Source of the DNA: Escherichia phage A4
Length of the DNA: 64,000 nucleotides
Reading direction: 5' to 3' (one strand)
Sequence record: ON286972
The notes under the pieces were generated by a model. The model ran no database searches. It had not been told where the DNA came from and saw only the letters and a program-made list of their open reading frames with translations. The position numbers and the translations under genes were made by a program. Positions 20,112-64,000 of the stretch are shown piece by piece (the stretch's first letter is position 1; each line of letters starts with the position of its first letter).

Positions 20112-20389
20112 TGGAATTCATTGTAGCTCCTGAAGAACTCAAGACCTTTAAGTTCAAAGATAATTATACGTATTCAAATCATTCCTTGAATTCAATTCAT
20201 GTAATTGCAATGGTTGCATCTGAATATAAAGATAACCCGTGTATTGATTTTAAAACCACTGATGGTGAATATACATGGGTGATCCCACGAGATAAATATA
20301 GTTATCAAGGGGCAGTAGAAATTCGTGACTCGATTCTAAAACAAATCGAAGATGGACATACTCATCCTAAACTAAACATTCAGTACTGA
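20111..20389 (+). CDS. hypothetical protein (92 aa)
   Basis: ORF track; ATGA overlap. Confidence 0.5.
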   Translation: MEFIVAPEELKTFKFKDNYTYSNHSLNSIHVIAMVASEYKDNPCIDFKTTDGEYTWVIPRDKYSYQGAVEIRDSILKQIEDGHTHPKLNIQY

Positions 20390-20639
20390 AAATGTTATAC
20401 CGATAGCTTCTGGAGCAGTACTGAATCCTCCTTTTTCTTTCAGAAGCTATCACATATTTTGTCGTAAAATGGTACTGTGAGTGGTTTGTCTTTCCATTCT
20501 CTCCAGGTCCAGTACCTATCATTGTAGTTCTGGAGAGATATAACATGTATAATGTTTTTTACCTCCTGTTTATCATTATATATGTCACTAAACGAGTAAT
20601 AACTACCCTCCCTCTAGGTTATTACTTTTGATTTTGGTA

Positions 20640-20668
20640 TTGACTTTCAATGCCGCAAATGTTATACT
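20640..20668 (+). promoter_or_regulatory. sigma70-type promoter
   Basis: TTGACT-N17-TATACT. Confidence 0.5.
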
Positions 20669-20671
20669 TAA

Positions 20672-20700
20672 GGCTGATTCAAATTGAATCGGCCTTTTTT
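20672..20700 (+). terminator. intrinsic terminator-like hairpin between promoter and gene
   Basis: GGCTGATTCAA-AAT-TTGAATCGGCC 10-bp stem then TTTTTTCTTTTT. Confidence 0.45.
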
Positions 20701-20718
20701 CTTTTTAAGGAGAACACC

Positions 20719-21114
20719 ATGAATTTGGTTGTAGAAGACGATATCTTTTCCGATGCTATTGAGTATATGTACAATCTTGTTAGACTTAATGAATTTGTAC
20801 AACGTCATACATTGACACATAAGGATGGGATTATTACTGTTGGTGCATACATTAATGGATACTTAACCGAGTTTTACAATTGTGATAACATTTTTATAAC
20901 CATTGATAACATCACTACGACTAATGACATATCCATTGATTTATTCAAAGATCATATTGAAATTGATATAGACAAGATGATTGCCATCGATATCGATCCT
21001 GTAATGTATGAGTTACAAGAAGAAATGTATGAGCAATTATGCTTTGTGTATGATTTGAGTAAAATTTCATTCTTTGACTTACGCAGAATCTGTTACGTAG
21101 TAGGTAAGTTATGA
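20719..21114 (+). CDS. hypothetical acidic protein (131 aa)
   Basis: Track ORF 20650..21114 trimmed to ATG 20719 after AAGGAG RBS. Confidence 0.5.
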   Translation: MNLVVEDDIFSDAIEYMYNLVRLNEFVQRHTLTHKDGIITVGAYINGYLTEFYNCDNIFITIDNITTTNDISIDLFKDHIEIDIDKMIAIDIDPVMYELQEEMYEQLCFVYDLSKISFFDLRRICYVVGKL

Positions 21115-21584
21115 CAAATATACGTGATGTATTAATGCAGTACGGTATCAGTGCTGAAATGCTTTCAGATGAAATTATTAAAAACTCTAAGATAGAATTT
21201 ATGTTTAATAGACACCGTTATCCAGGTGTTTATATTAATCGATCCTGTTCATTAATTTACTTTGAATACATGGATGAATATGTTATCATTGAAGAAATCA
21301 AACTCAATGGATGGCACTGTACAATTGAGTTAACGAAACCAAGAACCAAGAACAAAATAGTGATTAGTATTAATATCTATTACGATATTAGTACTGAAGA
21401 TGGAGCCTCACACTTTGTTCGAGTTTTGTCATCTGATGATAATTTAAAGTTAGATTATAAATCAGAAGAAGAATACTTTCAGGAAAGTTTAATCAATGAT
21501 TTAGTTTTTGATTATAACTTTTATAAAGAACTATCAAAAAACTTCGTTGAATGTATCAAACTATATGAGGAAGAGGACGAATGA
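21111..21584 (+). CDS. FQ-motif paralog family protein
   Basis: ORF track; SEEEYFQESL. Confidence 0.55.
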   Translation: MTNIRDVLMQYGISAEMLSDEIIKNSKIEFMFNRHRYPGVYINRSCSLIYFEYMDEYVIIEEIKLNGWHCTIELTKPRTKNKIVISINIYYDISTEDGASHFVRVLSSDDNLKLDYKSEEEYFQESLINDLVFDYNFYKELSKNFVECIKLYEEEDE

Positions 21585-24748: not shown

Positions 24749-25591
24749 ATGTCAAACATTATCGTATTCAAAACTGTATCATTCAATAAAGATCTTTATT
24801 CTCATTCTTATGTGTCTTCCAATAATCTCATCATTGAGTTGACAAATGGGGCAACGTTGGCGGTAGAATTCGATTCTAGTATTGAATCTAACGCTGCACT
24901 AAAAGAACTAGCAATGGTATTAAATGGTGAACCAGTAAACAAATCCAAACCAACTGATGGGTTGGATATGTTGGTCAATAAGATCCTAAATGGCAAATCT
25001 TCTGAAATTGTTGAACTTCTTAAAAATTGTACTGATAAAATCACTGAAACTGTTAGTACTGCAAAATCTAAGGCTGAAGATAAGCTTTATGAAGAAGCAT
25101 TTAAAGTCGTGGGGGCCGCAGCAGAATCTAAGTTAAATGGTATGATTAATAATCTTGACCAAGTGCTGTCTCATATGTTCACAAAAGAATATGAAACTGA
25201 AGAACCTGAATCCCAAGAACAACCTTCCAAAAAAGAAGATGTAAAATCTAAAGTGAAATCCGCATTTACTGGTGCTAAAAAGAAATTTGGTCTATCTGAA
25301 GATATCTTTGGATATTCTGATACCACAGCACAAACCGATGATGATTCACAGTCAGATGATATTCTGATTGGTGATATGCTTGATCGCCAGTTGCGTGCTG
25401 AAATTTCAGCATTCGTTGACAGTGTTGTTAGTTCTGAACGTGCACAAGATATGTTCGAAAGTATCAGTAAGAATTTTGGTGAAGAAGAATCGAAAGCTGC
25501 TATTGATGGATTTAAAAATCTAATTTATTCCGTTGCAGTGCAGCACCAAGATAAAACATTAGAATATGTGATTCGCAATTACTTTATGTAA
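24749..25591 (+). CDS. hypothetical acidic protein (280 aa)
   Basis: Track ORF 24668..25591 trimmed to ATG 24749 after GGAG RBS. Confidence 0.5.
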   Translation: MSNIIVFKTVSFNKDLYSHSYVSSNNLIIELTNGATLAVEFDSSIESNAALKELAMVLNGEPVNKSKPTDGLDMLVNKILNGKSSEIVELLKNCTDKITETVSTAKSKAEDKLYEEAFKVVGAAAESKLNGMINNLDQVLSHMFTKEYETEEPESQEQPSKKEDVKSKVKSAFTGAKKKFGLSEDIFGYSDTTAQTDDDSQSDDILIGDMLDRQLRAEISAFVDSVVSSERAQDMFESISKNFGEEESKAAIDGFKNLIYSVAVQHQDKTLEYVIRNYFM

Positions 25592-25602
25592 TGAGAACGA
25601 AA

Positions 25603-25628
25603 AAGCCTCCATATGGAGGCTTTTTTTA
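25603..25628. terminator. bidirectional intrinsic terminator between convergent genes
   Basis: Palindrome AAGCCTCCATATGGAGGCTT flanked by A-run and T-run. Confidence 0.6.
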
Positions 25629-26783
25629 TTGTTTGTCATAACCAATCACTACAATCTTAGCATCAAATGCTTCGACAGAAGTAATTGTAACATTCTCATC
25701 ATCATCAAGCTGAATTTCACATTGAACTGCATCATTGTTAATATCATATACTTGAACAAAAACAAATTCTTTCAAGTGTCCAGTACTGGATATATTAATT
25801 TCATACATTTCACCATTGCGTGTCCATTCAGAAGAAGAGACATTTTGTACATATGGAGATGTTTGTAATGTACTACCCAATATACTTAGTTTTATAGGTG
25901 TATTATCATATATTGTTACTGTAATATCACCAGTGGAGCTAACATTAATGCCAGCAGATACCAAATTATTATGATTATCATATACCTGAATAGCTAAGTT
26001 ATTACCACGCCCATGTACATCACCAGGGATTCTTGCACTATACACATCACCAGGCCCAGTACTGAATGTAGTTACTGATACAGTAGTGGTAAAGCCGTCA
26101 TCATCACCAACATCTAATATATTAAAATTAACGCTTTTTGTATTATAAAAATCAGACGTAAGAGTTATAGTTGCAGTTCCGGTTGACATAATTTCCGGTA
26201 CTGTTATAATGAATTCATCATTGACTATTGTACTCGTTGAATACTCGGACCCATCTGAAAATTTTACAGTAATTGTCATTCCTGTTGTGTTGATGGTTTG
26301 TCCAGCATTGAACAGTTTACCCGATATTTCAGTATCCCCAACATGAACCGGATTAACTAAAATATTATCTATATCACGATCAATAATTGAACAAGTTGGT
26401 GTGTACATATCAAAAGTAACATCGGAGTTTCCAAATATCGTTTTGTGTAATTGGAATTTAGTTACAAACCCTGTTGGATCTGTAGGTTTCAATTGATTAG
26501 TGTATCCACGAACAAAGAAAGTATTCTTTGCAATAACATCCAATAATTCATCATCGGATTTTTTATAGTTAAGTAAATTTCCTACCTTATCATAAGAAGT
26601 AATTTGTACGCGTCTATATATTTTGTTTGTTACAGGATCTATAATATCAAATAGTTTATAACTACGCTGTCTGTAAATTCTTATATTTTTTAATTTGGTT
26701 CCATCGATTAGTAAAGCACCATCCACGATATAACCACATTCACCGAACTTGTATTCTCCGGCATCAGCTATGGTTCTAGACAT
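25626..26783 (-). CDS. hypothetical beta-rich protein (385 aa), possibly Ig-like or virion-associated
   Basis: ORF track; only long minus-strand gene in the central region; Thr/Ser/Val-rich repeated beta-strand-like segments; GAGGGG RBS. Confidence 0.55.
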   Translation of the reverse strand: MSRTIADAGEYKFGECGYIVDGALLIDGTKLKNIRIYRQRSYKLFDIIDPVTNKIYRRVQITSYDKVGNLLNYKKSDDELLDVIAKNTFFVRGYTNQLKPTDPTGFVTKFQLHKTIFGNSDVTFDMYTPTCSIIDRDIDNILVNPVHVGDTEISGKLFNAGQTINTTGMTITVKFSDGSEYSTSTIVNDEFIITVPEIMSTGTATITLTSDFYNTKSVNFNILDVGDDDGFTTTVSVTTFSTGPGDVYSARIPGDVHGRGNNLAIQVYDNHNNLVSAGINVSSTGDITVTIYDNTPIKLSILGSTLQTSPYVQNVSSSEWTRNGEMYEINISSTGHLKEFVFVQVYDINNDAVQCEIQLDDDENVTITSVEAFDAKIVVIGYDKQ

Positions 26784-52720: not shown

Positions 52721-53041
52721 ATGAAGATTCAATTTATTCTTTTCACAGTAAGTGCATTCTACTTTTGGGTTTGCTGGATTGGTTTTCTCTTTGCACTAAA
52801 ACCATTTGACTTCTATGCAAAGCAGTGTAAAAATGCTGCTGTTGGTAATGTAGCTTTTACATTGCTTAGTACATTATGGGTAGTACTGATTATATTCAAT
52901 CCACCTGATAATGATTTGGAAATGTCATTGTGTACATTATTTGCAGGACTGTGTGTATTCGCAGCATTCTGTAGTTATATTGGAAAGTTATGTTCTTTGG
53001 TATCAAATTTCCATCGTAAACAAAAAGATAAGAGGGTATAA
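52721..53041 (+). CDS. small integral membrane protein (106 aa)
   Basis: ORF track. Confidence 0.5.
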   Translation: MKIQFILFTVSAFYFWVCWIGFLFALKPFDFYAKQCKNAAVGNVAFTLLSTLWVVLIIFNPPDNDLEMSLCTLFAGLCVFAAFCSYIGKLCSLVSNFHRKQKDKRV

Positions 53042-53424
53042 TGTACACAACAATATATGTTATTCTTAATATCCTAAGTGCATGTCTAACAATAGGTGCA
53101 TTAATATACATTGGAAAGTTCTTTTGTGTAAAGTTCGTCGAAGATGTGTATGAGGATATTGAATCCGACTACGAATCTAAGTGCTTCTTCCATGTTGGAT
53201 ATATCATTTGCTTAGTAACCACTATCTTCACATGGATTGTATACGTATTCGGGATTGGAATCACTTCAATTGGTGAACCAGTACTGTGCATTATTGGATT
53301 AGTGTTTTCTTCAATATTCGGGTTATTGTTCATGATTATTCTTATGTATAATTTAATCTGTACTGCTATTGTTCCTTTCTTTTATGAAATTCACAATAAC
53401 ATTAAACGTAAGAAACGAGGTTAA
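53041..53424 (+). CDS. small integral membrane protein (127 aa)
   Basis: ORF track. Confidence 0.5.
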   Translation: MYTTIYVILNILSACLTIGALIYIGKFFCVKFVEDVYEDIESDYESKCFFHVGYIICLVTTIFTWIVYVFGIGITSIGEPVLCIIGLVFSSIFGLLFMIILMYNLICTAIVPFFYEIHNNIKRKKRG

Positions 53425-53426
53425 TT

Positions 53427-53780
53427 ATGTTTTCTCCTGCTGGACAAGTTATATTCATGGTATGTACACTGGTATTCTTTATGTTGTCTGTACTATTTGT
53501 GATGAAATTCTTTCACATGAAACCATTCAGTACTTGGTATGATAATATTGTGTACTATATTGGTAATGCTATAACACTCTTTTCAGTTGCATACTATTTC
53601 GGTTATTTTGCAATGCTATTTGGGTTATTACTTGAAGCTCGTGCATTGCTTGTAGCTGGTATGGTGGCAGATTTAATGTGTCTAACACTAGCTTGTATTG
53701 GATTTACTGTATGTATGTCGTTAACCATTTTTGACAAATTATGTAAACTACACAAACGTTTAGGTGAGAGGATGAAATAA
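53427..53780 (+). CDS. small integral membrane protein (117 aa)
   Basis: ORF track. Confidence 0.5.
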   Translation: MFSPAGQVIFMVCTLVFFMLSVLFVMKFFHMKPFSTWYDNIVYYIGNAITLFSVAYYFGYFAMLFGLLLEARALLVAGMVADLMCLTLACIGFTVCMSLTIFDKLCKLHKRLGERMK

Positions 53781-54163
53781 TGACTTACCGTGATTACTTT
53801 TGTATTTTTGAAATTGCAGTATTCGCTTTAGGTTCAGTCTGGTTACTTCTATACTACTTCTGTATTAATCCAGTATTCAATTGGGTTCGTCGTGCTGAAC
53901 AAAGTAGTGCTGGACAAATAGCAGTTGTTATGGGTATGACATATTATATGTTCGCCGTGGCTTCTGTTGTTATTGAAGTAATATTTGGTGGCATGAATGG
54001 TGATGATGGGGCAACGTTCTATGGATTCGTAACATTCTTTAGTGTGCTGATTCCGTGTGGTGCTCTTATTATTACTGCGTTCTATTGGCTATATCGTGGT
54101 GTTAAGAAGCTGGAATCAATTCACGTAGATATGCGTTCAAAACGAATGGGGATTGACAAATAA
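53780..54163 (+). CDS. small integral membrane protein (127 aa)
   Basis: ORF track. Confidence 0.5.
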   Translation: MTYRDYFCIFEIAVFALGSVWLLLYYFCINPVFNWVRRAEQSSAGQIAVVMGMTYYMFAVASVVIEVIFGGMNGDDGATFYGFVTFFSVLIPCGALIITAFYWLYRGVKKLESIHVDMRSKRMGIDK

Positions 54164-54714
54164 TGAAACGAAGTTCTAATGTCATTCGCGAACGATTTCG
54201 TAAAGTAAAAACTATTAAGTACGGGACTATTGCTCTTGTACTTAGTAGTACTTTTATTATGACAGGATGTGAACGCTCTGAAGATATTTCTGTATATCAG
54301 AATGTGGACCAATGTAAAAGAAGTGGTAGCAATCCGGTACAGTGTGAAGATGATTATAAAAAAGCACTAACTGAATCGGAAAAGGTAGCACCAAAATATA
54401 GTTCACAAAGTGATTGCTCTAGTGATTTTGGTAATCAGTGTCAACAGCATAGCTCTGGATTCTTTTGGATGCCAATTATGAGTGGATTCCATAGTAGTGG
54501 TAATGGGTTTGCTAGTCAACCACTATACAACTCTAAAGGGAACTACTATGATGCTGGTGGTAACTCCTACGGTAGCAGTACTGCAAAAGGTACAACACGT
54601 ACTGTATCAAGTTCCGCATTAGCTCCAAAACCTCCTACAACGACCACAATCACCCGCAATGGGTTTGGGTCTTCAGTAGCCAGAAGTGCCGCTCACACGA
54701 GTTCTGGTGGATAA
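54163..54714 (+). CDS. lipoprotein (lipobox IMTGC), Ser/Gly/Thr-rich C-terminus
   Basis: N-terminus MKRSSNVIRERFRKVKTIKYGTIALVLSSTFIMTGC; ATGA overlap with upstream gene. Confidence 0.6.
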   Translation: MKRSSNVIRERFRKVKTIKYGTIALVLSSTFIMTGCERSEDISVYQNVDQCKRSGSNPVQCEDDYKKALTESEKVAPKYSSQSDCSSDFGNQCQQHSSGFFWMPIMSGFHSSGNGFASQPLYNSKGNYYDAGGNSYGSSTAKGTTRTVSSSALAPKPPTTTTITRNGFGSSVARSAAHTSSGG

Positions 54715-54715
54715 T

Positions 54716-54745
54716 AAAAAAGCCCACATTAAGTGGGCTTTTTGT
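54716..54745. terminator. bidirectional intrinsic terminator between convergent gene blocks
   Basis: AGCCCAC-ATTAA-GTGGGCT hairpin flanked by AAAAA and TTTTGTT. Confidence 0.6.
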
Positions 54746-56769
54746 TATTTGTGTTTTATGTGTAAAGTGTCTAATATTGTATTGAACAATGATTTAGCAG
54801 AAATCATGATTACTTGATCAAAATCTTTAGTATAAGAAATATTAGCAGTACTGGAAGAATCTTTCACCTCATCCGGTAATGCATCAAACTCTTCTTTTTC
54901 CATAATCTTTTCAAGTTCTTCACGAGAAATGGCTTTTACGTTTTCAATAGTCCTTAGTTGTATATTATAATCTTTATAATACGAAACTAAGTTCGTTGCG
55001 TATGAACCATCTTTAGATGCTGTTCCAGTAAAATCATAACATCCTGTATCAGTACTAACCCAATCGATTTTCCCTGAACTACCACTATATACACCTTTGT
55101 TGAACTTAATGTTAACAACATCACCAATAGTTTTCAATATACCACCTTTACATTCATTAAATGCGTTTAATTGATAACTTGTAGTCATATAGAATTTCGG
55201 TTCTAATGTAACAGTATCACCTACAGTTGCTTTCATATCAGAAACACTTAAGAACAATTCATTAAATCCTTTTGAATAAGTCTTGGTAATTGTTGTTCCA
55301 TCCCTGTTAGTTACTGTGTATTCTAAGTCCAATTCACAAATACTATTCAATGATAAGTAAGGGATATCAAATTTATCAGTACTAGCATCATAAGGACATC
55401 TTGAGGATGGTAGTATACCAGTAGGGTTTGGTACGTATTGAACTTTTGTTAACTCATACCCGCTTGCATTCGCTGGTGTAACTGTAATAGACGGTGTAGA
55501 TATTCCTTTCATTCCACAGAAGTATATGTTATCTGGAAAATCATTTATTACGAAGTCAGTGACAGGAATATCATAAGTATCTTTATCAGTCCAATTAAGA
55601 ACAACATTAGAACTGGTTGGATCAACAATATGTTCACTAGAACCACAGAAATATACTGATTTGGTATTAGTAATCATTAGTAATGTTTTGGATGATGAGT
55701 TCAATTCAAGAACATCTTTCACTTCAAGACCAGATGGTAATGTCAATGGTAACTTCGTAAATGATGTTAAATCTTGTTCATCTTTAACACCACTAGTCCC
55801 CGCCGGAAACTTACCTGAACCATAGAAAACACCTTTATTCGTCATGAAATACATGAACGGGGTTGATGTTCCTTTGTCAAATAGTTGAATGTCATCACAT
55901 GTTAAACCATCAGGTAAATCCACTTTAGATGGAGTTCTATAAACACCAGGCTTAATACCACCTTCACCATTACTTACATCACCTAGTACATATAAATCTT
56001 TACCTAGTTTCAAGAACATTGATTTATTTTTAGCACACAAGAATGTATCATATGATTTATCATCAATTGGTAGCTTGGTATATTCGGTGTATGTAGGCAT
56101 TGAATCATCAATCCACGAACTATCACCACTAATGTAAATGTGATTGTTTCTGTCAATATAATATGAATACACATCAGTACTGTTCATATATAAAGCATTT
56201 AGTGCATTTGTTTTCACTAAGTGATTGAACTTAAGAACTTGTTTTCCATCGTACTTATGGGAGTTGACACCAATATCACCATTTAGGCTACTACCAATTG
56301 AATATATATGACCACGTGGTAATAGAACTTGAACACCACTTTTGGTTAAATTATATTTGGAGTGCAAGAGATCGTTATATACAACTCTAACTTTCTTAAA
56401 GATATCAGTACATTCAATCCACGATTTAGATGGTGTACCATCCATTCCTATTATTGCCGGATCACCATAATAATAAGCTTTATTTTCATATGATATTTTA
56501 AAAGATGATTTACCATCTTTTGTATTAGCACTGAAGTACACATCTTTACTATCTTTAATTGGATAAGTACTATTCTCTACAAAAGTATTATATGAGATAT
56601 CGTTGTTAGCACTATTAAGAACAAAAGAAGTAGATGTACTATTGGACTTATAGACTGCTACGGAAGATGTATCACTGAAATCAATTTTAGTGAACGTATC
56701 TTTGTATGTTTCGTTTAATAATCCTACATAAAAAACATCAGTGCCATCCATCAGTAACGAATATAGCAT
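54745..56769 (-). CDS. RCC1-like repeat protein, possibly the C-terminal part of a frameshifted gene continuing from 56738..57682
   Basis: ORF track; no RBS before its ATG; frame opens 29 nt upstream of the stop of the preceding minus-strand ORF. Confidence 0.55.
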   Translation of the reverse strand: MLYSLLMDGTDVFYVGLLNETYKDTFTKIDFSDTSSVAVYKSNSTSTSFVLNSANNDISYNTFVENSTYPIKDSKDVYFSANTKDGKSSFKISYENKAYYYGDPAIIGMDGTPSKSWIECTDIFKKVRVVYNDLLHSKYNLTKSGVQVLLPRGHIYSIGSSLNGDIGVNSHKYDGKQVLKFNHLVKTNALNALYMNSTDVYSYYIDRNNHIYISGDSSWIDDSMPTYTEYTKLPIDDKSYDTFLCAKNKSMFLKLGKDLYVLGDVSNGEGGIKPGVYRTPSKVDLPDGLTCDDIQLFDKGTSTPFMYFMTNKGVFYGSGKFPAGTSGVKDEQDLTSFTKLPLTLPSGLEVKDVLELNSSSKTLLMITNTKSVYFCGSSEHIVDPTSSNVVLNWTDKDTYDIPVTDFVINDFPDNIYFCGMKGISTPSITVTPANASGYELTKVQYVPNPTGILPSSRCPYDASTDKFDIPYLSLNSICELDLEYTVTNRDGTTITKTYSKGFNELFLSVSDMKATVGDTVTLEPKFYMTTSYQLNAFNECKGGILKTIGDVVNIKFNKGVYSGSSGKIDWVSTDTGCYDFTGTASKDGSYATNLVSYYKDYNIQLRTIENVKAISREELEKIMEKEEFDALPDEVKDSSSTANISYTKDFDQVIMISAKSLFNTILDTLHIKHK

Positions 56770-57682
56770 TTCTATTATTACATAAAGAAGTAATATTTTT
56801 TACTACTTTATTTGAATTATAGTTTGGTAACTTCTTTAATCCACGAACAAAATTATCACAAATAATACCAGTACCATAGAAGTTATAATCTTTATCACAG
56901 TATATAAATGCTGTATCATATGGTGAAGTACTTAAATTCTTATAGAATGGGAATGGAGTGAATGTGAATTGTAGAACCTTACGCAATTCCCCTACTGTCT
57001 CTGTTGGGAATTGTCTGTTTTTATTATTACCAATAAAAACAACTCTATCTGTTAGGAATGTGTACATAATTCCATATGGTTTTACGTACAAATCATTATA
57101 TCCCAATGATAATTTAGTTGGTGATGTTAGTGGTCCTGAGTTTATTTTGGTTTGATTAATTGAAAACTCATTAGAATTATAACCAGCCCCATATGTATTA
57201 CCATTAGTACTTAAATAATATACAGTAGCTTCCCCTGCTCCAAGAAAAGTCTTTACATCAGTTGCTAACGTTTTTTGGAAAGTTGGATAAAATTTATTAT
57301 ATGTTCCCGTTCCCATCATCAGTTCACCATTGCGGTTATGACCACGAGCATATAGAATACCTTTGTCTGTATCTAAGAAGAACATACCATTATATGTTTT
57401 GTAAATCTTACCTTTTGTAATATCGAAATTGGAAAAATCATCACTAATATCAATGAATATTGTCTCAAGATTATCTTCAAGGGAGTTTAGAGATTTACCA
57501 CAATACCATACTGAGTTATCTTTTTTAACAGCAACACAACCACACGGACTGGCATCAAAATATGTTACATCGGAAAGAACCAGAGATAAGTTCTTTGTAC
57601 TGCAATAGTTATCCATTGCATATAAATCGGAATCTTTAAGTATATATACGGAATTCCCAACCGCTTTAATCGAATTTATCAT
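56738..57682 (-). CDS. RCC1-like repeat protein (N-terminal part or separate gene)
   Basis: Track ORF 56738..57772 trimmed to ATG 57682 (MINSIK...) after GAGGA RBS; G.N..GELMMGTG-type repeats. Confidence 0.55.
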   Translation of the reverse strand: MINSIKAVGNSVYILKDSDLYAMDNYCSTKNLSLVLSDVTYFDASPCGCVAVKKDNSVWYCGKSLNSLEDNLETIFIDISDDFSNFDITKGKIYKTYNGMFFLDTDKGILYARGHNRNGELMMGTGTYNKFYPTFQKTLATDVKTFLGAGEATVYYLSTNGNTYGAGYNSNEFSINQTKINSGPLTSPTKLSLGYNDLYVKPYGIMYTFLTDRVVFIGNNKNRQFPTETVGELRKVLQFTFTPFPFYKNLSTSPYDTAFIYCDKDYNFYGTGIICDNFVRGLKKLPNYNSNKVVKNITSLCNNRNAIFVTDGWH

Positions 57683-57901
57683 GTTTATATCCTCATAAAT
57701 TGATACCAATTCTAATGTATTTACCCACTTAAAGTACAAAAAATGATCAATTAAATGGGGAATCTTTAACAAATGAATTCATGATGTACTTGATGAATTG
57801 CCCATACCAACGGATTCCTCAGTCCCAGCATACCACATGGTATTATCGAACTTTTTATCATTGTAGTATCATAACCACACCAAACATCATCAACATTAGT
57901 A

Positions 57902-59254
57902 TTACAACAATTGTATTTCTGTGAGTGTTTGATATGTTGTACCGTTGTACACACCTCTCCAATATACCCTACCTTCAGTACTAACCACTAATAATCCATA
58001 TGTTGTAAACCCAAGAGTACCACCAACATACATAGCATCTTTAATTCGAATACCAATGTCTTCATATGTAAATGAAGCGACTGCTCCCGCTTGCCACGAA
58101 GGACTAGCGTAGTAATCACTATAAACACCATGTGCTTTATATATTGATGTTGTTCCTGGTTCAAAAATTACAGTTCCACAGTAGTTCATTCGTATTTTAG
58201 TACTGGATGAAGTCGGTACATTTATACCTATGCCATCTTTTATCCCTGTAGTTAGGACGTTAAAACCACCCGCCACACGGTTGACGTCATTCTCACCGAT
58301 TAAAAACATACCAACGTTGTAGCCCATATAATATACACTGCTACTGCCATTCCAGAAAGAAAAACCACCACCATTACCACAGCGATATAGTTGTGAATTT
58401 GAGCAGTACATCATACCTTCGTTTGTCGCATCAAATTCATCTGCTGTTCCTATTGTAGCTACAGTAGTCCACGTTTTAATCACTTGGTTTGTACTAGCTG
58501 GTGTTTGTATACCATATCGTATATTATATCCCTTACCAACGATTGTACCATCTTCTAATTTAGCATAAAGTACAGGTCTATTACCAACAAAATACATATT
58601 ATTGTGTGACATGTCTATTGTGCATCTTAATGAAACTACTTTTTGTGTCAATTGATTATCTTTAGTAAAAGAAGTAAAGTAGTAATCCGATGTTGAGTTG
58701 TTTATTAAACCTTGTATTGACAATCCCATATACCAGATTTCACCATTGCTGTTTAATGCTGCCAAAATACAACTATATTTTGAAGTGTATGCTGGTGATG
58801 TTGTTGAAGTTGCTGGTCCTTTATCATATCCACCACAGAATACCATCTCCACAACTTCACCTACGTTCGAAAAATAAGAAGATACATTGATAAAACCATT
58901 TGTTATAAAAGGTGCTGTATTCATACTTGAATGTGTGAATATCCCATTTGCATATACACCACAAAAATGATATGAACCATCATTATCTTGGACTATTATT
59001 CCATTTGATAGTAACCAAAAATTGTTTACATTTTTTCTTACTAATTCAACTCCTGCACCATTGGTTGGTGTTATACCAAAAGAAACATATTTTGTTTGAC
59101 CAATACCATATAAATTTCCATTAGTTGCTAGTATTGCACCAAACCAGTTCCCACCACCATTCCTATCATGACCCATACCAATGGAGTCAAATTTCTTCAC
59201 AGTAGGGACTTCAACTTTATTCCCATACTCTAGCATTCTAACAAAAGGTAACAT
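57902..59254 (-). CDS. RCC1-like beta-propeller repeat protein (putative receptor-binding or tail-fibre-like), paralog E
   Basis: Track ORF 57902..59320 trimmed to ATG 59254 (MLPFVRMLEYGN) after AGGAGG; track N-extension reads through the terminator hairpin. Confidence 0.65.
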   Translation of the reverse strand: MLPFVRMLEYGNKVEVPTVKKFDSIGMGHDRNGGGNWFGAILATNGNLYGIGQTKYVSFGITPTNGAGVELVRKNVNNFWLLSNGIIVQDNDGSYHFCGVYANGIFTHSSMNTAPFITNGFINVSSYFSNVGEVVEMVFCGGYDKGPATSTTSPAYTSKYSCILAALNSNGEIWYMGLSIQGLINNSTSDYYFTSFTKDNQLTQKVVSLRCTIDMSHNNMYFVGNRPVLYAKLEDGTIVGKGYNIRYGIQTPASTNQVIKTWTTVATIGTADEFDATNEGMMYCSNSQLYRCGNGGGFSFWNGSSSVYYMGYNVGMFLIGENDVNRVAGGFNVLTTGIKDGIGINVPTSSSTKIRMNYCGTVIFEPGTTSIYKAHGVYSDYYASPSWQAGAVASFTYEDIGIRIKDAMYVGGTLGFTTYGLLVVSTEGRVYWRGVYNGTTYQTLTEIQLL

Positions 59255-59318
59255 ATATCCTCCTTTATTCATTATATTATATTTAATCAAAAAAGAAAAG
59301 CCAGTACAGAGTACTGGC
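59255..59318 (-). promoter_or_regulatory. repeated intergenic cassette: terminator hairpin, TATAAT box, AGGAGG RBS
   Basis: Minus-strand read: GCCAGTACTCTGTACTGGC, T-tract, GATTAAATATAATATAATGAATAAAGGAGG, ATG; near-identical at four sites. Confidence 0.5.
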
Positions 59319-59329
59319 ATTTAAAATAA

Positions 59330-60505: not shown

Positions 60506-60569
60506 AATTCCTCCTTTATTCATTATACTATATTTAATCAAAAAAGAAATGCCAGCATCAAGTACTGGC
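60506..60569 (-). promoter_or_regulatory. repeated intergenic cassette (terminator, TATAAT, RBS)
   Basis: Hairpin GCCAGTACTTGATGCTGGC, T-tract, TATAGTATAATGAATAAAGGAGG. Confidence 0.5.
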
Positions 60570-60576
60570 ATTATTG

Positions 60577-61767: not shown

Positions 61768-61832
61768 ATTTCCCTCCTTTATTCATTATACTATATTTAA
61801 TCAAAAAAGAAAAGCCAGTATCAAGTACTGGC
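61768..61832 (-). promoter_or_regulatory. repeated intergenic cassette (terminator, TATAAT, RBS)
   Basis: Hairpin GCCAGTACTTGATACTGGC, T-tract, TATAGTATAATGAATAAAGGAGGG. Confidence 0.5.
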
Positions 61833-61838
61833 CTATAT

Positions 61839-63008
61839 TTAAACTGGTGAATCTAATACAAATTCTAAACTACTAATGCCACCATATGTGACATTTGTCC
61901 CTGTGCTATATACAAAATTACCATCAGTTATATAAGTTCGGTTATACCCACCTGCCATCTGCGACTTACTATAATCAAACCCATCAGGAACGATTGCTTT
62001 GGTATATACTAATGCATTATTAGATGTACCAATACCTAACATACCAGCTCCTGAAGATTTATTGTAGCCGCAACAATATATACCATCTGTTGTAGCAATA
62101 ACTTGGTTATAATATGAAGTAATGTTAGCAATGCTTACTACATCACCGGGTGGCATTAGTGAAGCAGTTTGAACCTCAAATGCTCTATAATCACTGAGAG
62201 AACCATTTATCCCATCTGCTTGTGCACCAAATATTCTCGAACCGCCATTTGCGATGATGGTTTTACCAGTGGGATCAGTACCAATTGCCATTGCCATTGA
62301 AGTACTATTCTCCATATAGTACTTGATATTAATTGTATTTCTTAAGCTGGTAGGAGCACCATAATATATAGTATATAACTTACCTCCTGAACTTGTAACT
62401 GCATTTACTCTTCCTGTATAAAATAGCCATCCTTGGTTTGTAACATAACCGTGCATTAAATTACTTGCAAACAATTTAACAGGTAATTGATCTGCTGCGG
62501 TCGGAACAGTACTTTTGACGAATTTTCTAGCAACATTGTTAGTTGTTGTCCCATCACCCAACTGACCATCACCCCCTGCTCCAGTACTCCATATTGTTTG
62601 GTCTGTTAGTAATACACTTGTAGTCTGATAACTAACTGCTATATCTAATATTGGTAATGTTAACGTATCGAATGTTGGCATAGCAGAAGTCCATATTGAT
62701 ACTGCTGCCCCTGGCATACCAACAGTTGTTGAACTTCCACTGTACCATATTTCATCATTGCTTTTCTTAATAACTATCGACGTGGCTCCCATCCAAAAAT
62801 CTTGAACATCAGAAGTGCTAAAAGTCCATGTAGTAACAATATTTTTGTGACCTAAACCCAAAAGACCATTTGTATTCTCACCACGCACATATAAATCACC
62901 ACTGTTTGTTAAAACAGCAACATTATAGTTGTTAGCTAGTATTTTTTTAATATTTGGTTTAGCAGGTGCAATATTCCCATACTCTAACATTCTTACAAAA
63001 GGTAACAT
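61839..63008 (-). CDS. RCC1-like beta-propeller repeat protein, paralog B
   Basis: Track ORF 61839..63170 trimmed to ATG 63008 (MLPFVRMLEYGN); GLLGLGHKNIVTTW, GQLGDGTTTNN repeats. Confidence 0.65.
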   Translation of the reverse strand: MLPFVRMLEYGNIAPAKPNIKKILANNYNVAVLTNSGDLYVRGENTNGLLGLGHKNIVTTWTFSTSDVQDFWMGATSIVIKKSNDEIWYSGSSTTVGMPGAAVSIWTSAMPTFDTLTLPILDIAVSYQTTSVLLTDQTIWSTGAGGDGQLGDGTTTNNVARKFVKSTVPTAADQLPVKLFASNLMHGYVTNQGWLFYTGRVNAVTSSGGKLYTIYYGAPTSLRNTINIKYYMENSTSMAMAIGTDPTGKTIIANGGSRIFGAQADGINGSLSDYRAFEVQTASLMPPGDVVSIANITSYYNQVIATTDGIYCCGYNKSSGAGMLGIGTSNNALVYTKAIVPDGFDYSKSQMAGGYNRTYITDGNFVYSTGTNVTYGGISSLEFVLDSPV

Positions 63009-63072
63009 AATTCCTCCTTTATTCATTATATTATATTTAATCCAAATAAGAAAGCCAGTATCAAGTACTGGC
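63009..63072 (-). promoter_or_regulatory. repeated intergenic cassette (terminator, TATAAT, RBS)
   Basis: Hairpin GCCAGTACTTGATACTGGC, T-tract, TATAATATAATGAATAAAGGAGG. Confidence 0.5.
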
Positions 63073-63078
63073 ATTGTG

Positions 63079-64000
63079 TTATTTCGGTAAATCAATTTTA
63101 GTAAAGACTGCAACATCCTCGCTTGCACCGGGAATGGCGTAATACGTTCCAGTACTATATACATCTCCATTTTTGGTTAATATTGAAGTCAAACCATCAC
63201 TAAAAAGAACATCCCTAATCTCACTAACTTCAACGGGTAATTGTAAATTTGTAGCACTATATATAGCACCAGTTTGAGAATTGTTTAATCCCAAACCACG
63301 GTTCGCCCCAACACCCTTCTGATATGTACTGGTAATTACCATTTGTGTAGCAGTATTTAATGCAGGTGAATTCGTCATAAACAACGGAGAACTATTAGGC
63401 AAAGTACTTACAGGAACTGCACGGAATGTAGTCGTACCTGAACTAAGAAAGTTTGGAGTTTGACCACATACGAAATATGATGTACCATTATAGTAATTAA
63501 ATGCATTACCACCAATCGCTGCATCGATTACACCAGAACTACGTAATCCCCAAGTGTTAATTTGTGTTTGGTCCCCTGTACCATGCTGCCCACTGCTATT
63601 CCATCCAGAACTATATAGCTTATTATCTAATGTAATATACATACTATCATTTGCATTAGTCATTACTTTACGCACGTTAGTAGCACATTGAGTTAATGTG
63701 TAAATCGATGATGAGCCAATACCTAAAGAACCACGATATCCATTATCTCCTGCACCATAGAGTACTGAACTAGTGCTAAGTACAAATATTAAACCATTTG
63801 TACATACAATATTAGCAATTTCACTCACTGGTATAGCATTGGTAAACCAATTAGTCCTTTCAACTAATATAGTACTGTAAGAAGTAGTTGTAGAAGATGA
63901 GAACCAGTACGTTTCACCCGATGTCCATATCGTATTATCATTTTTAATAATAACAAGTGTACGACCACCCACGAAAAAATTAGAAACATCTGAACTTACT
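63079..64000 (-). CDS. RCC1-like repeat protein, paralog A, 5'-truncated by window edge
   Basis: Frame stays open upstream of the track start (GTG 63972) to the window end; GYRGSLGIGSSS, GQHGTGDQTQINTW repeats. Confidence 0.55.
   Translation of the reverse strand, partial: VSSDVSNFFVGGRTLVIIKNDNTIWTSGETYWFSSSTTTSYSTILVERTNWFTNAIPVSEIANIVCTNGLIFVLSTSSVLYGAGDNGYRGSLGIGSSSIYTLTQCATNVRKVMTNANDSMYITLDNKLYSSGWNSSGQHGTGDQTQINTWGLRSSGVIDAAIGGNAFNYYNGTSYFVCGQTPNFLSSGTTTFRAVPVSTLPNSSPLFMTNSPALNTATQMVITSTYQKGVGANRGLGLNNSQTGAIYSATNLQLPVEVSEIRDVLFSDGLTSILTKNGDVYSTGTYYAIPGASEDVAVFTKIDLPK

What the first reader, a model, noticed from the sequence alone, without database searches (positions are those of the whole stretch)
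54745..57682. Frame discontinuity between two adjacent propeller ORFs: programmed frameshift, pseudogene or sequencing indel
ORF 56738..57682 ends ...NAIFVTDGWH* while ORF 54745..56769 is open from 56799 in the +1 frame and reads ...MLYSLLMDGTDVFYVG across the same nucleotides. It has no RBS before its ATG, and a TTTTTT run follows the stop. The two halves together would make a protein of about 990 aa.
Basis: seen in the sequence. Interest (0 to 1): 0.55.

Follow-up and report, generated by a model that had tools for sequence, protein, structure and literature searches.

The report
Four-base duplication splits a phage gene
The two adjacent "propeller" ORFs are one conserved 977-aa phage gene, split in this strain (Escherichia phage A4) by a 4-base tandem duplication; it is an ordinary frameshift mutation, not a programmed recoding signal.

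Summary
On the minus strand, ORF 57682..56738 (314 aa) ends ...NAIFVTDGWH*. ORF 56769..54745 (674 aa) overlaps it by 32 nt in the +1 frame and has no Shine-Dalgarno.

The cause is a 4-nt tandem duplication, GATG to GATGGATG, at window 56745..56752. It is the only indel against three syntenic orthologous loci (99%, 81% and 70.5% nt identity). Deleting one copy restores a single 977-codon ORF.

At least eleven distinct orthologs read straight through (...NAIFVTDGTDVFYVG...). These include a 35%-identical 1332-aa relative in the same gene neighbourhood. Both halves evolve under purifying selection as one gene (dN/dS 0.07-0.27).

The window is Escherichia phage A4, an Asteriusvirus jumbo phage, which annotates the halves as A4_237 and A4_236.

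Programmed frameshifting is rejected. The discontinuity is not conserved, no tRNA re-pairing is possible, there is no stimulatory structure, and the T6 run is ordinary coding sequence.

A sequencing artefact is unlikely but not excluded. The duplication is not in a homopolymer, and two other public assemblies carry the identical allele.

Most likely this is a recent, strain-specific inactivating or truncating mutation of an accessory RCC1-like double-propeller gene. Interest is low.

The parts
56745..56752 (-). The lesion: tandem duplication GATG|GATG (minus strand; CATCCATC on the plus strand). Orthologs have a single GATG here, within ACT GAT GGC ACT = T-D-G-T.
   Evidence: it is the only indel between the window gene and L002, L003 and L004; blastn places a 4-nt 'GATG' insertion at about 56752; deleting one copy gives a 977-codon ORF with no internal stop.
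56738..57682 (-). 5' fragment (A4_237, 314 aa). It holds native residues 1-312 of the 977-aa protein, then W-H, then TGA. It covers about 6.5 of the 7 ~50-aa RCC1-like repeats of the first propeller. It has a genuine start with a GAGGA Shine-Dalgarno.
   Evidence: SD -6.1 kcal/mol. (exact match to USL83904.1, Escherichia phage A4). (PF25390 RCC1-like domain, E = 7.9e-7). (repeat hairpins).
54745..56769 (-). 3' fragment (674 aa from ATG 56769; annotated as A4_236, 668 aa, from ATG 56751). It corresponds to residues 313-977 of the intact protein: the rest of blade 7, a second RCC1-like propeller, a beta-rich C-terminal domain and a short helical tail. It has no ribosome-binding site of its own.
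   Evidence: USL83903.1. (SD +0.9 and +1.2). (phrog_4219 'regulator of chromosome condensation', E = 1.4e-30, residues 385-698 of P0001)..
56730..56735 (-). It is ordinary coding sequence (GTT TTT TAT = V-F-Y in the native frame). It is neither a terminator nor a slippery site.
   Evidence: the run is present in intact L002 but reads GTATATTAT in L003 and GTTTATTAT in L004; no terminator-like hairpin here.
54717..54743 (.). Bidirectional terminator-like hairpin (AAAAAGCCCACATTAAGTGGGCTTTTT). It is the true 3' end of the gene and lies between it and the convergent DUF1190 gene at 54163..54714(+).
   Evidence: Weak Rfam leader/terminator-type hits at the same place.
57683..57901 (-). 219-nt upstream intergenic region carrying the SD of the 977-aa gene. 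It follows the 450-aa RCC1-like paralog at 57902..59254.

Best explanation
The window comes from Escherichia phage A4, an Asteriusvirus jumbo phage of about 355 kb. At the end of its tandem array of RCC1-like genes sits a conserved accessory gene for a 977-aa protein. That protein has two RCC1-like beta-propellers, a beta-rich C-terminal domain and a short helical tail.

In A4 a slipped-strand-type tandem duplication of 4 nt (GATG to GATGGATG) arose in the codons for the invariant Asp311-Gly312 turn of a blade hairpin. The +4 insertion shifts the frame, and translation from the real start stops after 314 residues (...VTDGWH*).

The remaining 665 codons stay open in the +1 frame. They have no Shine-Dalgarno, so at most they are made at low level by reinitiation at AUG 56769 or 56751.

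Shown: the duplication, the intact orthologs, the synteny, the purifying selection and the lack of recoding signals.

Inferred: that the lesion is a true mutation in the phage stock rather than a read error; that it is recent; and that it inactivates or cripples a dispensable gene.
For: - **Intact homologs.** The homolog search with the 674-aa half returned only proteins of 977, 977 and 969 aa that cover 99% of it. Their sequences read ...NAIFVTDGTDV[F/Y]YVG... across the junction.
- **More intact orthologs.** Seven further distinct 977-aa proteins are intact. So is a 35%-identical 1332-aa relative aligned over residues 1-934, which sits in the same convergent arrangement with the DUF1190 gene.
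- **Single indel.** DNA alignment to L002, L003 and L004 (98.98%, 80.9% and 70.5% identity) shows one indel, the GATG duplication. Removing it restores a 977-codon ORF.
- **Selection.** dN/dS is 0.07-0.27 in both halves.
- **Identity of the window.** Both fragments match A4_237 and A4_236 exactly.
- **Reproduced allele.** Logan contig SRR18825480_2584 and ENA ERZ14213602 NODE_310 (coverage 37) are 100% identical to the window over 8.6 and 11.9 kb, including the duplication.
- **Clean assembly.** There is no other frame-breaking coding indel in about 13 kb of high-identity alignment to L002.
- **Position of the break.** It lies in the seventh of seven ~50-aa blade hairpins, predicted as strands 306-310 and 315-320 (low confidence).
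- **Dispensability.** tblastn of both halves finds nothing in 50,697 phage records, although many Asteriusviruses match the flanks.
- **Recurrence.** Split RCC1-like paralogs also occur in phage slurp01.
Against: - No reads were inspected.
- The three concordant assemblies may derive from one read set, so they show that the duplication is in the reads, not that independent isolates share it.
- The repaired A4 sequence shows no clear decay. There are 8 amino-acid differences from P0001 and only 3 private substitutions, against 0-1 in close relatives. dN/dS against L002 is 0.07-0.18. This fits a very recent mutation, but it equally fits an artefact or a still-functional split gene.
- Expression of either fragment was not tested.
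Confidence: 0.8

Rival explanations
1. Sequencing or assembly artefact: the real A4 genome has a single GATG and an intact 977-aa gene.
For: A single 4-nt change is the only defect in a gene that otherwise looks fully constrained. No reads could be examined. The concordant Logan and ENA contigs may come from the same sequencing run as the GenBank record.
Against: The change is a tetranucleotide tandem duplication, not a homopolymer length error. Three assemblies made with different assemblers agree base for base, one at about 37x coverage. The window shows no other frame-breaking coding indel against its 98-99% identical relative.
Confidence: 0.1
2. The mutation is real but the gene still works as a split gene. 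The 314-aa N-fragment is made normally. Ribosomes terminating at UGA 56740..56738 reinitiate at the nearby AUG 56751 or 56769 (11 and 29 nt upstream). That would give a 668/674-aa C-fragment that acts alone or reassembles with the N-fragment.
For: Two in-frame AUGs lie within 30 nt upstream of the stop, a geometry that permits termination-reinitiation coupling in bacteria (general knowledge). The downstream part contains a complete second propeller and the C-terminal domain. There are no further disabling mutations.
Against: Neither AUG has a Shine-Dalgarno (+0.9 and +1.2 kcal/mol). The cut falls inside a blade hairpin at the invariant D311-G312, not at a domain boundary. No ortholog is organised as two genes.
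Confidence: 0.07
3. Programmed +1 ribosomal frameshift (prfB-like), or a reversible tetranucleotide switch, that regulates the amount of full-length protein.
For: A +1 shift exactly at CAC-UGA would give ...VTDGWH-DVFYVG..., which is nearly the native ...VTDG-T-DVFYVG... (read). A two-copy tandem repeat can revert by slippage (general knowledge, e.g. the lacI CTGG hotspot).
Against: The discontinuity is absent from all 11 or more orthologs. tRNA-His cannot re-pair from CAC to ACU, and there is no SD-like element at prfB spacing (sequence). The region has no stable RNA structure (z = +0.60, 140 of 200 shuffles fold as well) and no Rfam hit near the junction. Only 1 versus 2 repeat copies are seen, not a repeat tract.
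Confidence: 0.03

Closest known systems
Strain-specific frameshift-split genes (pseudogenes) created by short tandem duplications through slipped-strand mispairing. The classic example is the +/-4 CTGG hotspot of E. coli lacI (from my own knowledge).
   Same: The insertion is one extra copy of a 4-nt unit next to its template, with 1-nt flanking microhomology (G-ATGG-ATGG). It shifts the frame, creates a premature stop a few codons later and leaves the downstream ORF open. Relatives carry the intact gene.
   Different: Only a 1-to-2 copy change was seen, with no repeat tract, so there is no evidence that this site is a hotspot. The functional consequence was not tested.
RCC1-like domain (RLD) seven-bladed beta-propellers (RCC1, HERC1/HERC2 RLDs, RPGR, UVR8) and the multi-copy 'regulator of chromosome condensation' genes of Asteriusvirus jumbo phages. 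phAPEC6 encodes eleven, of unknown function (PMC7247149).
   Same: The repeats are about 50 aa long with hairpins of the type xxFxxDGxxYxxG. There are Pfam PF25390 and PHROG 4219 hits. The top Foldseek hits are HERC1/2 RLDs, UVR8 and RPGR, with E about 1e-9. The gene lies at the end of the phage's tandem RCC1-like array.
   Different: The match is far below Pfam's gathering score (54.5 against 150 bits). There are two propellers plus an extra C-terminal domain in one 977-aa chain, whereas the array paralogs are about 380-450 aa with a single propeller. The chain lacks the MLPF[GAV]RM N-terminus of those paralogs. tblastn finds no match in 50,697 phage records.
Programmed +1 frameshifting of prfB (RF2) and programmed -1 frameshifting of phage tail chaperones (lambda G/GT) (from my own knowledge).
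   Same: Two overlapping ORFs would together encode one longer protein, and an in-frame UGA lies at the shift point.
   Different: No slippery codon, no SD-like stimulator and no downstream structure are present, and the arrangement is not conserved. Orthologs are simply in frame.

Membership tests
Frameshift-split gene (recent pseudogene) | Orthologs encode one uninterrupted protein collinear with both fragments | tested here: met
   P0001-P0003, P0007-P0013 (969-977 aa) and P0014 (1332 aa, 35% identity) all read through the junction. Synteny with the DUF1190 gene is kept.
Frameshift-split gene (recent pseudogene) | A single indel whose length is not a multiple of 3 accounts for the break, and its removal restores the ORF | tested here: met
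   The 4-nt GATG duplication at 56745..56752 is the only indel against L002 and L003.
Frameshift-split gene (recent pseudogene) | The lesion is present in the biological genome (read support) and full-length product is lost | not testable with these tools
   Support is indirect only: three concordant assemblies. No reads or proteomics were available.
Programmed ribosomal frameshift site | The frame discontinuity is conserved among orthologs | tested here: not met
   It is absent from every ortholog found, at identities from 99% down to 35%.
Programmed ribosomal frameshift site | A slippery sequence allows tRNA re-pairing in the new frame | tested here: not met
   The P-site codon before the stop is CAC. 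Its +1 codon is ACU and its -2 codon is GGC, and neither can pair with tRNA-His. The T6 run lies downstream of the stop in the 0 frame.
Programmed ribosomal frameshift site | A stimulatory element is present (an upstream SD-like sequence, or a downstream hairpin or pseudoknot) | tested here: not met
   RNA fold of 56790..56660 gives MFE -17.8 against a shuffle mean of -19.9, z = +0.60. No Rfam match lies near the junction. No SD-like duplex is found.
Simple-sequence-repeat phase-variable (contingency) locus | A tract of several tandem units shows copy-number polymorphism among strains | tested here: not met
   All intact orthologs with DNA in hand (L002, L003, L004) have one copy, and A4 has two. 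The protein-only orthologs are in frame.
RCC1-like domain beta-propeller | Sequence match to the family profile at the curated threshold | tested here: not met
   PF25390 scores 54.5 bits (E = 1.5e-14) on P0001 against a gathering score of 150. The two fragments score 29-30 bits each. PHROG 4219 gives E = 1.4e-30.
RCC1-like domain beta-propeller | Seven repeats of about 50 aa fold as a seven-bladed propeller | tested here: inconclusive
   Seven hairpin motifs at spacings of 36-53 aa lie in residues 11-325, with more in residues 351-725. The AF2 model has mean pLDDT 56.6, and residues 193-389 score below 50. Foldseek top hits are HERC1/2 RLD, UVR8 and RPGR, with TM about 0.45-0.5 normalised to the target.

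The most novel reading that the evidence does not exclude
The GATG/GATGGATG site may be a reversible on/off switch, or a low-level +1 recoding site at CAC-UGA that yields ...GWHD... in place of ...GTD.... Either would let the jumbo phage keep its terminal double-propeller RCC1-like gene mostly silent while still producing a little full-length protein or reverting readily. That would be a phage analogue of a bacterial contingency locus in a hypervariable accessory array.
Probability: 0.03. Interest if true: 0.4.

Novelty: new member of a known kind. Interest (0 to 1): 0.1.

Why it matters
The main value is for annotation. A4_236 and A4_237 should be annotated as one disrupted gene (a pseudogene, or a frameshifted ortholog of a 977-aa protein), not as two hypothetical proteins.

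The finding also defines a previously unnamed 977-aa double RCC1-like propeller protein. This protein closes the RCC1-like gene array in a subset of Asteriusvirus phages.

Together with the split paralogs in phage slurp01, it shows that this array turns over quickly by frameshift decay. That fits these genes being dispensable, fast-evolving accessory genes whose function is still unknown.

It does not reveal a new recoding mechanism.

Tried and rejected
- **megablast and tblastn of both halves against 50,697 phage records.** These found no ortholog. The gene is missing from that collection, and A4 itself is not in it.
- **megablast against complete E. coli genomes.** No match.
- **Exact-pattern scans matching either allele in IMG/VR and in JGI metagenome contigs.** Nothing was found, so allele frequencies in nature could not be estimated.
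- **Literature search for phage A4.** Nothing was found. The only relevant paper was on phAPEC6 (PMC7247149). It reports eleven RCC1-like genes, gives no function, and speculates about DNA organisation.
- **AlphaFold2 on an 11-sequence alignment.** The model was weak (pLDDT 56.6), with the junction region below 50. The claim about where the break falls structurally therefore rests mainly on the sequence repeat pattern.
- **The T6 run as a terminator or slippery site.** Rejected.
- **Two genuine overlapping genes.** Rejected, because all orthologs are fused and the break lies inside a blade hairpin at invariant residues.
- **Excess of private substitutions as a test of relaxed selection.** The count is 3 in A4 against 0-1 in close relatives, which is too few to interpret.
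Full report
**1. The observation**

All coordinates in this section are on the minus strand.

- ORF 57682..56738 encodes 314 aa, MINSIKAVG...NAIFVTDGWH, followed by TGA at 56740..56738.
- ORF 56769..54745 encodes 674 aa beginning MLYSLLMDGTDVFYVG. The two overlap by 32 nt.
- A T6 run occupies 56735..56730.
- The upstream ORF has a good Shine-Dalgarno (GAGGA; anti-SD duplex -6.1 kcal/mol).
- The two candidate starts of the downstream ORF have none (ATG 56769, +0.9; ATG 56751, +1.2). Thirteen neighbouring gene starts average about -5 kcal/mol.

The description is accurate.

**2. Source of the window**

Flanking DNA matches Asteriusvirus jumbo coliphages (slurp01, 121Q, PBECO4-like) at 85-92% identity.

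Exact-sequence look-up identifies the fragments as USL83904.1 (A4_237, 314 aa) and USL83903.1 (A4_236, 668 aa, from ATG 56751). Both belong to Escherichia phage A4, on a contig of 355,528 bp.

The locus is the last gene of a tandem array of RCC1-like genes on the minus strand. It is convergent with a DUF1190 gene at 54163..54714(+). A bidirectional terminator-like hairpin at 54717..54743 separates the two.

**3. The cause of the frame break**

A homolog search with the 674-aa half returned only three clusters, of 977, 977 and 969 aa. Each covers 99% of the query and extends about 300 residues further N-terminally. Their sequences begin MINSIKAVGNSVYILKD..., like the upstream ORF, and read ...NAIFVTDGTDV[F/Y]YVGLLNETYK... 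straight across the junction.

I fetched the three loci (L002, L003, L004). All are syntenic with the window, with the same DUF1190 gene and the same small-gene series downstream.

A DNA alignment of the gene gives 98.98%, 80.9% and 70.5% identity. Against L002 and L003 there is exactly one indel: the window reads ACT GATG GATG GCACT where the orthologs read ACT GATG GCACT (confirmed by blastn).

The lesion is therefore a 4-nt tandem duplication at 56745..56752. Deleting one copy gives a single ORF of 977 codons with no internal stop.

Seven further distinct 977-aa orthologs are all in frame (P0007-P0013). Three of them come from 352-359 kb contigs deposited as E. coli.

An exhaustive HMMER search found a 35%-identical 1332-aa relative (P0014) aligned over residues 1-934. 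It too is convergent with a DUF1190 gene. The fused architecture is therefore ancestral, and the split is private to A4.

**4. Constraint on the gene**

Nei-Gojobori dN/dS between orthologs is 0.09-0.27 in the N-terminal part and 0.07-0.18 in the C-terminal part. Both halves evolve under purifying selection as parts of one gene.

Repaired A4 against L002 has 30 substitutions. The values are dN/dS 0.18 and 0.07, and dS about 0.03-0.04.

A4 has three private amino-acid changes (F175I, N235K, I527M), against 0-1 in its closest relatives. This is too few to show relaxed constraint. If the frameshift is real, it is recent.

**5. Where the break falls in the protein**

Both fragments and the intact protein give sub-threshold hits to the Pfam RCC1-like domain PF25390. 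The intact protein also gives a solid hit to PHROG 4219, 'regulator of chromosome condensation' (E = 1.4e-30, residues 385-698). A profile of the family weakly hits RPGR and RCC1 chains in the PDB.

Residues 11-325 contain seven blade-type hairpins (xxhhxxDGxxhYxxG) at spacings of 36-53 residues. The seventh is NAIFVTDG|TDVFYVG, and more follow in residues 351-725.

D311 and G312, at the duplication, are invariant in the 11-sequence alignment.

An AlphaFold2 model is weak overall (mean pLDDT 56.6), and residues 193-389 score below 50. It does predict strands 306-310 and 315-320 flanking the site. It also predicts a better-defined second propeller and a beta-rich domain at about 730-900. Foldseek's best hits are the HERC1/HERC2 RLDs, UVR8, RPGR and RCC1.

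The cut therefore lies inside a blade hairpin and not at a domain boundary. By inference, the 314-aa product lacks the strands that close the first propeller.

**6. Rejecting programmed frameshifting**

- The discontinuity is absent from every ortholog.
- The needed shift is +1 (or -2). The last sense codon is CAC, and tRNA-His cannot re-pair on ACU or GGC.
- There is no SD-like element at prfB-type spacing.
- The 131-nt mRNA segment around the site folds no better than shuffles (z = +0.60).
- Rfam has nothing near the junction.
- The T6 run lies after the stop in the 0 frame and encodes V-F-Y in the native frame. It is not conserved (GTATATTAT in L003, GTTTATTAT in L004). No hairpin precedes it.

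One curiosity: a +1 slip exactly at CAC-U-GAU would give ...GWHD... in place of the native ...GTD.... Rare spontaneous frameshifting at the stop could therefore make a trace of near-native protein. Nothing suggests that this is programmed.

**7. Artefact or real mutation?**

I could not see reads, so the evidence is indirect.

- The change is a tetranucleotide duplication, which is not the usual homopolymer error.
- Logan's own assembly of SRR18825480 (contig of 8,647 bp) and an ENA SPAdes assembly (ERZ14213602 NODE_310, coverage 37, 11,853 bp) are 100% identical to the window, including the duplication.
- In about 13 kb aligned to L002 at 97% identity or more, the other indels are intergenic or sum to multiples of three.

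These assemblies may share a read set. They show that the duplication is in the reads, not that independent isolates share it.

I rate a real mutation at about 0.8-0.9 and an artefact at about 0.1.

**8. Consequence**

The most likely outcome is loss or crippling of a dispensable accessory protein.

Dispensability is supported by tblastn. Neither half finds anything in 50,697 phage genomes, although dozens of Asteriusviruses match the flanks.

The RCC1-like array is also visibly prone to such decay. Phage slurp01 has two split paralogs: 59 + 343 aa with a 32-nt overlap, and 74 + 298 aa.

A minority possibility is that the C-terminal 668/674 aa is still made by termination-reinitiation at the AUGs 11 and 29 nt upstream of the stop.

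The function of these phage RCC1-like proteins is unknown. phAPEC6 has eleven of them, and its authors only speculate about DNA organisation (PMC7247149).

**9. Verdict**

This is a correct observation with an ordinary explanation: a strain-specific 4-nt tandem-duplication frameshift in a conserved 977-aa gene. Its value is in correcting the annotation and as a small data point on the turnover of RCC1-like arrays in jumbo phages. Interest is about 0.1.

Noticed in passing
L001 (Escherichia phage slurp01, LT603033.1) 24976..26155(-) and 20143..21307(-): Two other RCC1-like paralogs in a related phage are also split by frame breaks. One is a 59-aa N-fragment (MLPFGRMMNYGN...) overlapping a 343-aa remainder by 32 nt. 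The other is a 74/78-aa N-fragment followed by a 298-aa remainder. Frameshift decay seems recurrent in these arrays.
   Followed up: partly
window 59255..59329, 60548..60576, 61768..61838, 62972..63082 (minus strand): Each RCC1-like paralog is separated from the next by a repeated cassette of about 70-110 nt, 90-94% identical between copies. The cassette has a terminator-like hairpin GCCAGTAC...GTACTGGC plus a T-run, then an AT-rich stretch, then a strong SD (AAAGGAGG). The long ORFs that begin 'MPVL.TGFSFLIKY.IMNKGG' just read through this cassette. The real starts are the MLPFVRML... ATGs (for example 59254, SD -11.6 kcal/mol).
   Followed up: partly
L002 2939..3862 (Logan SRR30543657 contig), against window 57780: A4's closest relative carries an extra segment of about 810 bp between the 450-aa paralog and the 977-aa gene. 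It holds a 307-aa gene with a faint RCC1-like signal. A4, L003 and L004 lack it, so the array also varies by gain and loss of whole genes.
   Followed up: no
window 52721..54714 (+): Four back-to-back small hydrophobic proteins of 106, 127, 117 and 127 aa have abutting or overlapping start and stop codons and look like paralogous multi-pass membrane proteins. They are followed by a 183-aa DUF1190 protein with a lipoprotein-like N-terminus (...LSSTFIMTGC). The block is conserved in all relatives fetched.
   Followed up: no
P0007, P0008, P0009, P0013: Intact orthologs sit on 352-359 kb contigs deposited in NCBI as Escherichia coli (e.g. EOR9074039.1, HCQ0858733.1, MED6699253.1). These are probably whole Asteriusvirus genomes co-assembled with, or carried by, bacterial isolates and labelled as bacterial.
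   Followed up: no
window 54717..54743: A perfect 11-bp-stem hairpin is flanked by A5 and T5 (AAAAAGCCCACATTAAGTGGGCTTTTT). It lies between the convergent DUF1190 gene and the 977-aa gene and is probably a bidirectional intrinsic terminator. Several Rfam leader and sRNA models hit it weakly (E = 0.05-0.9), probably because of the terminator alone.
   Followed up: partly
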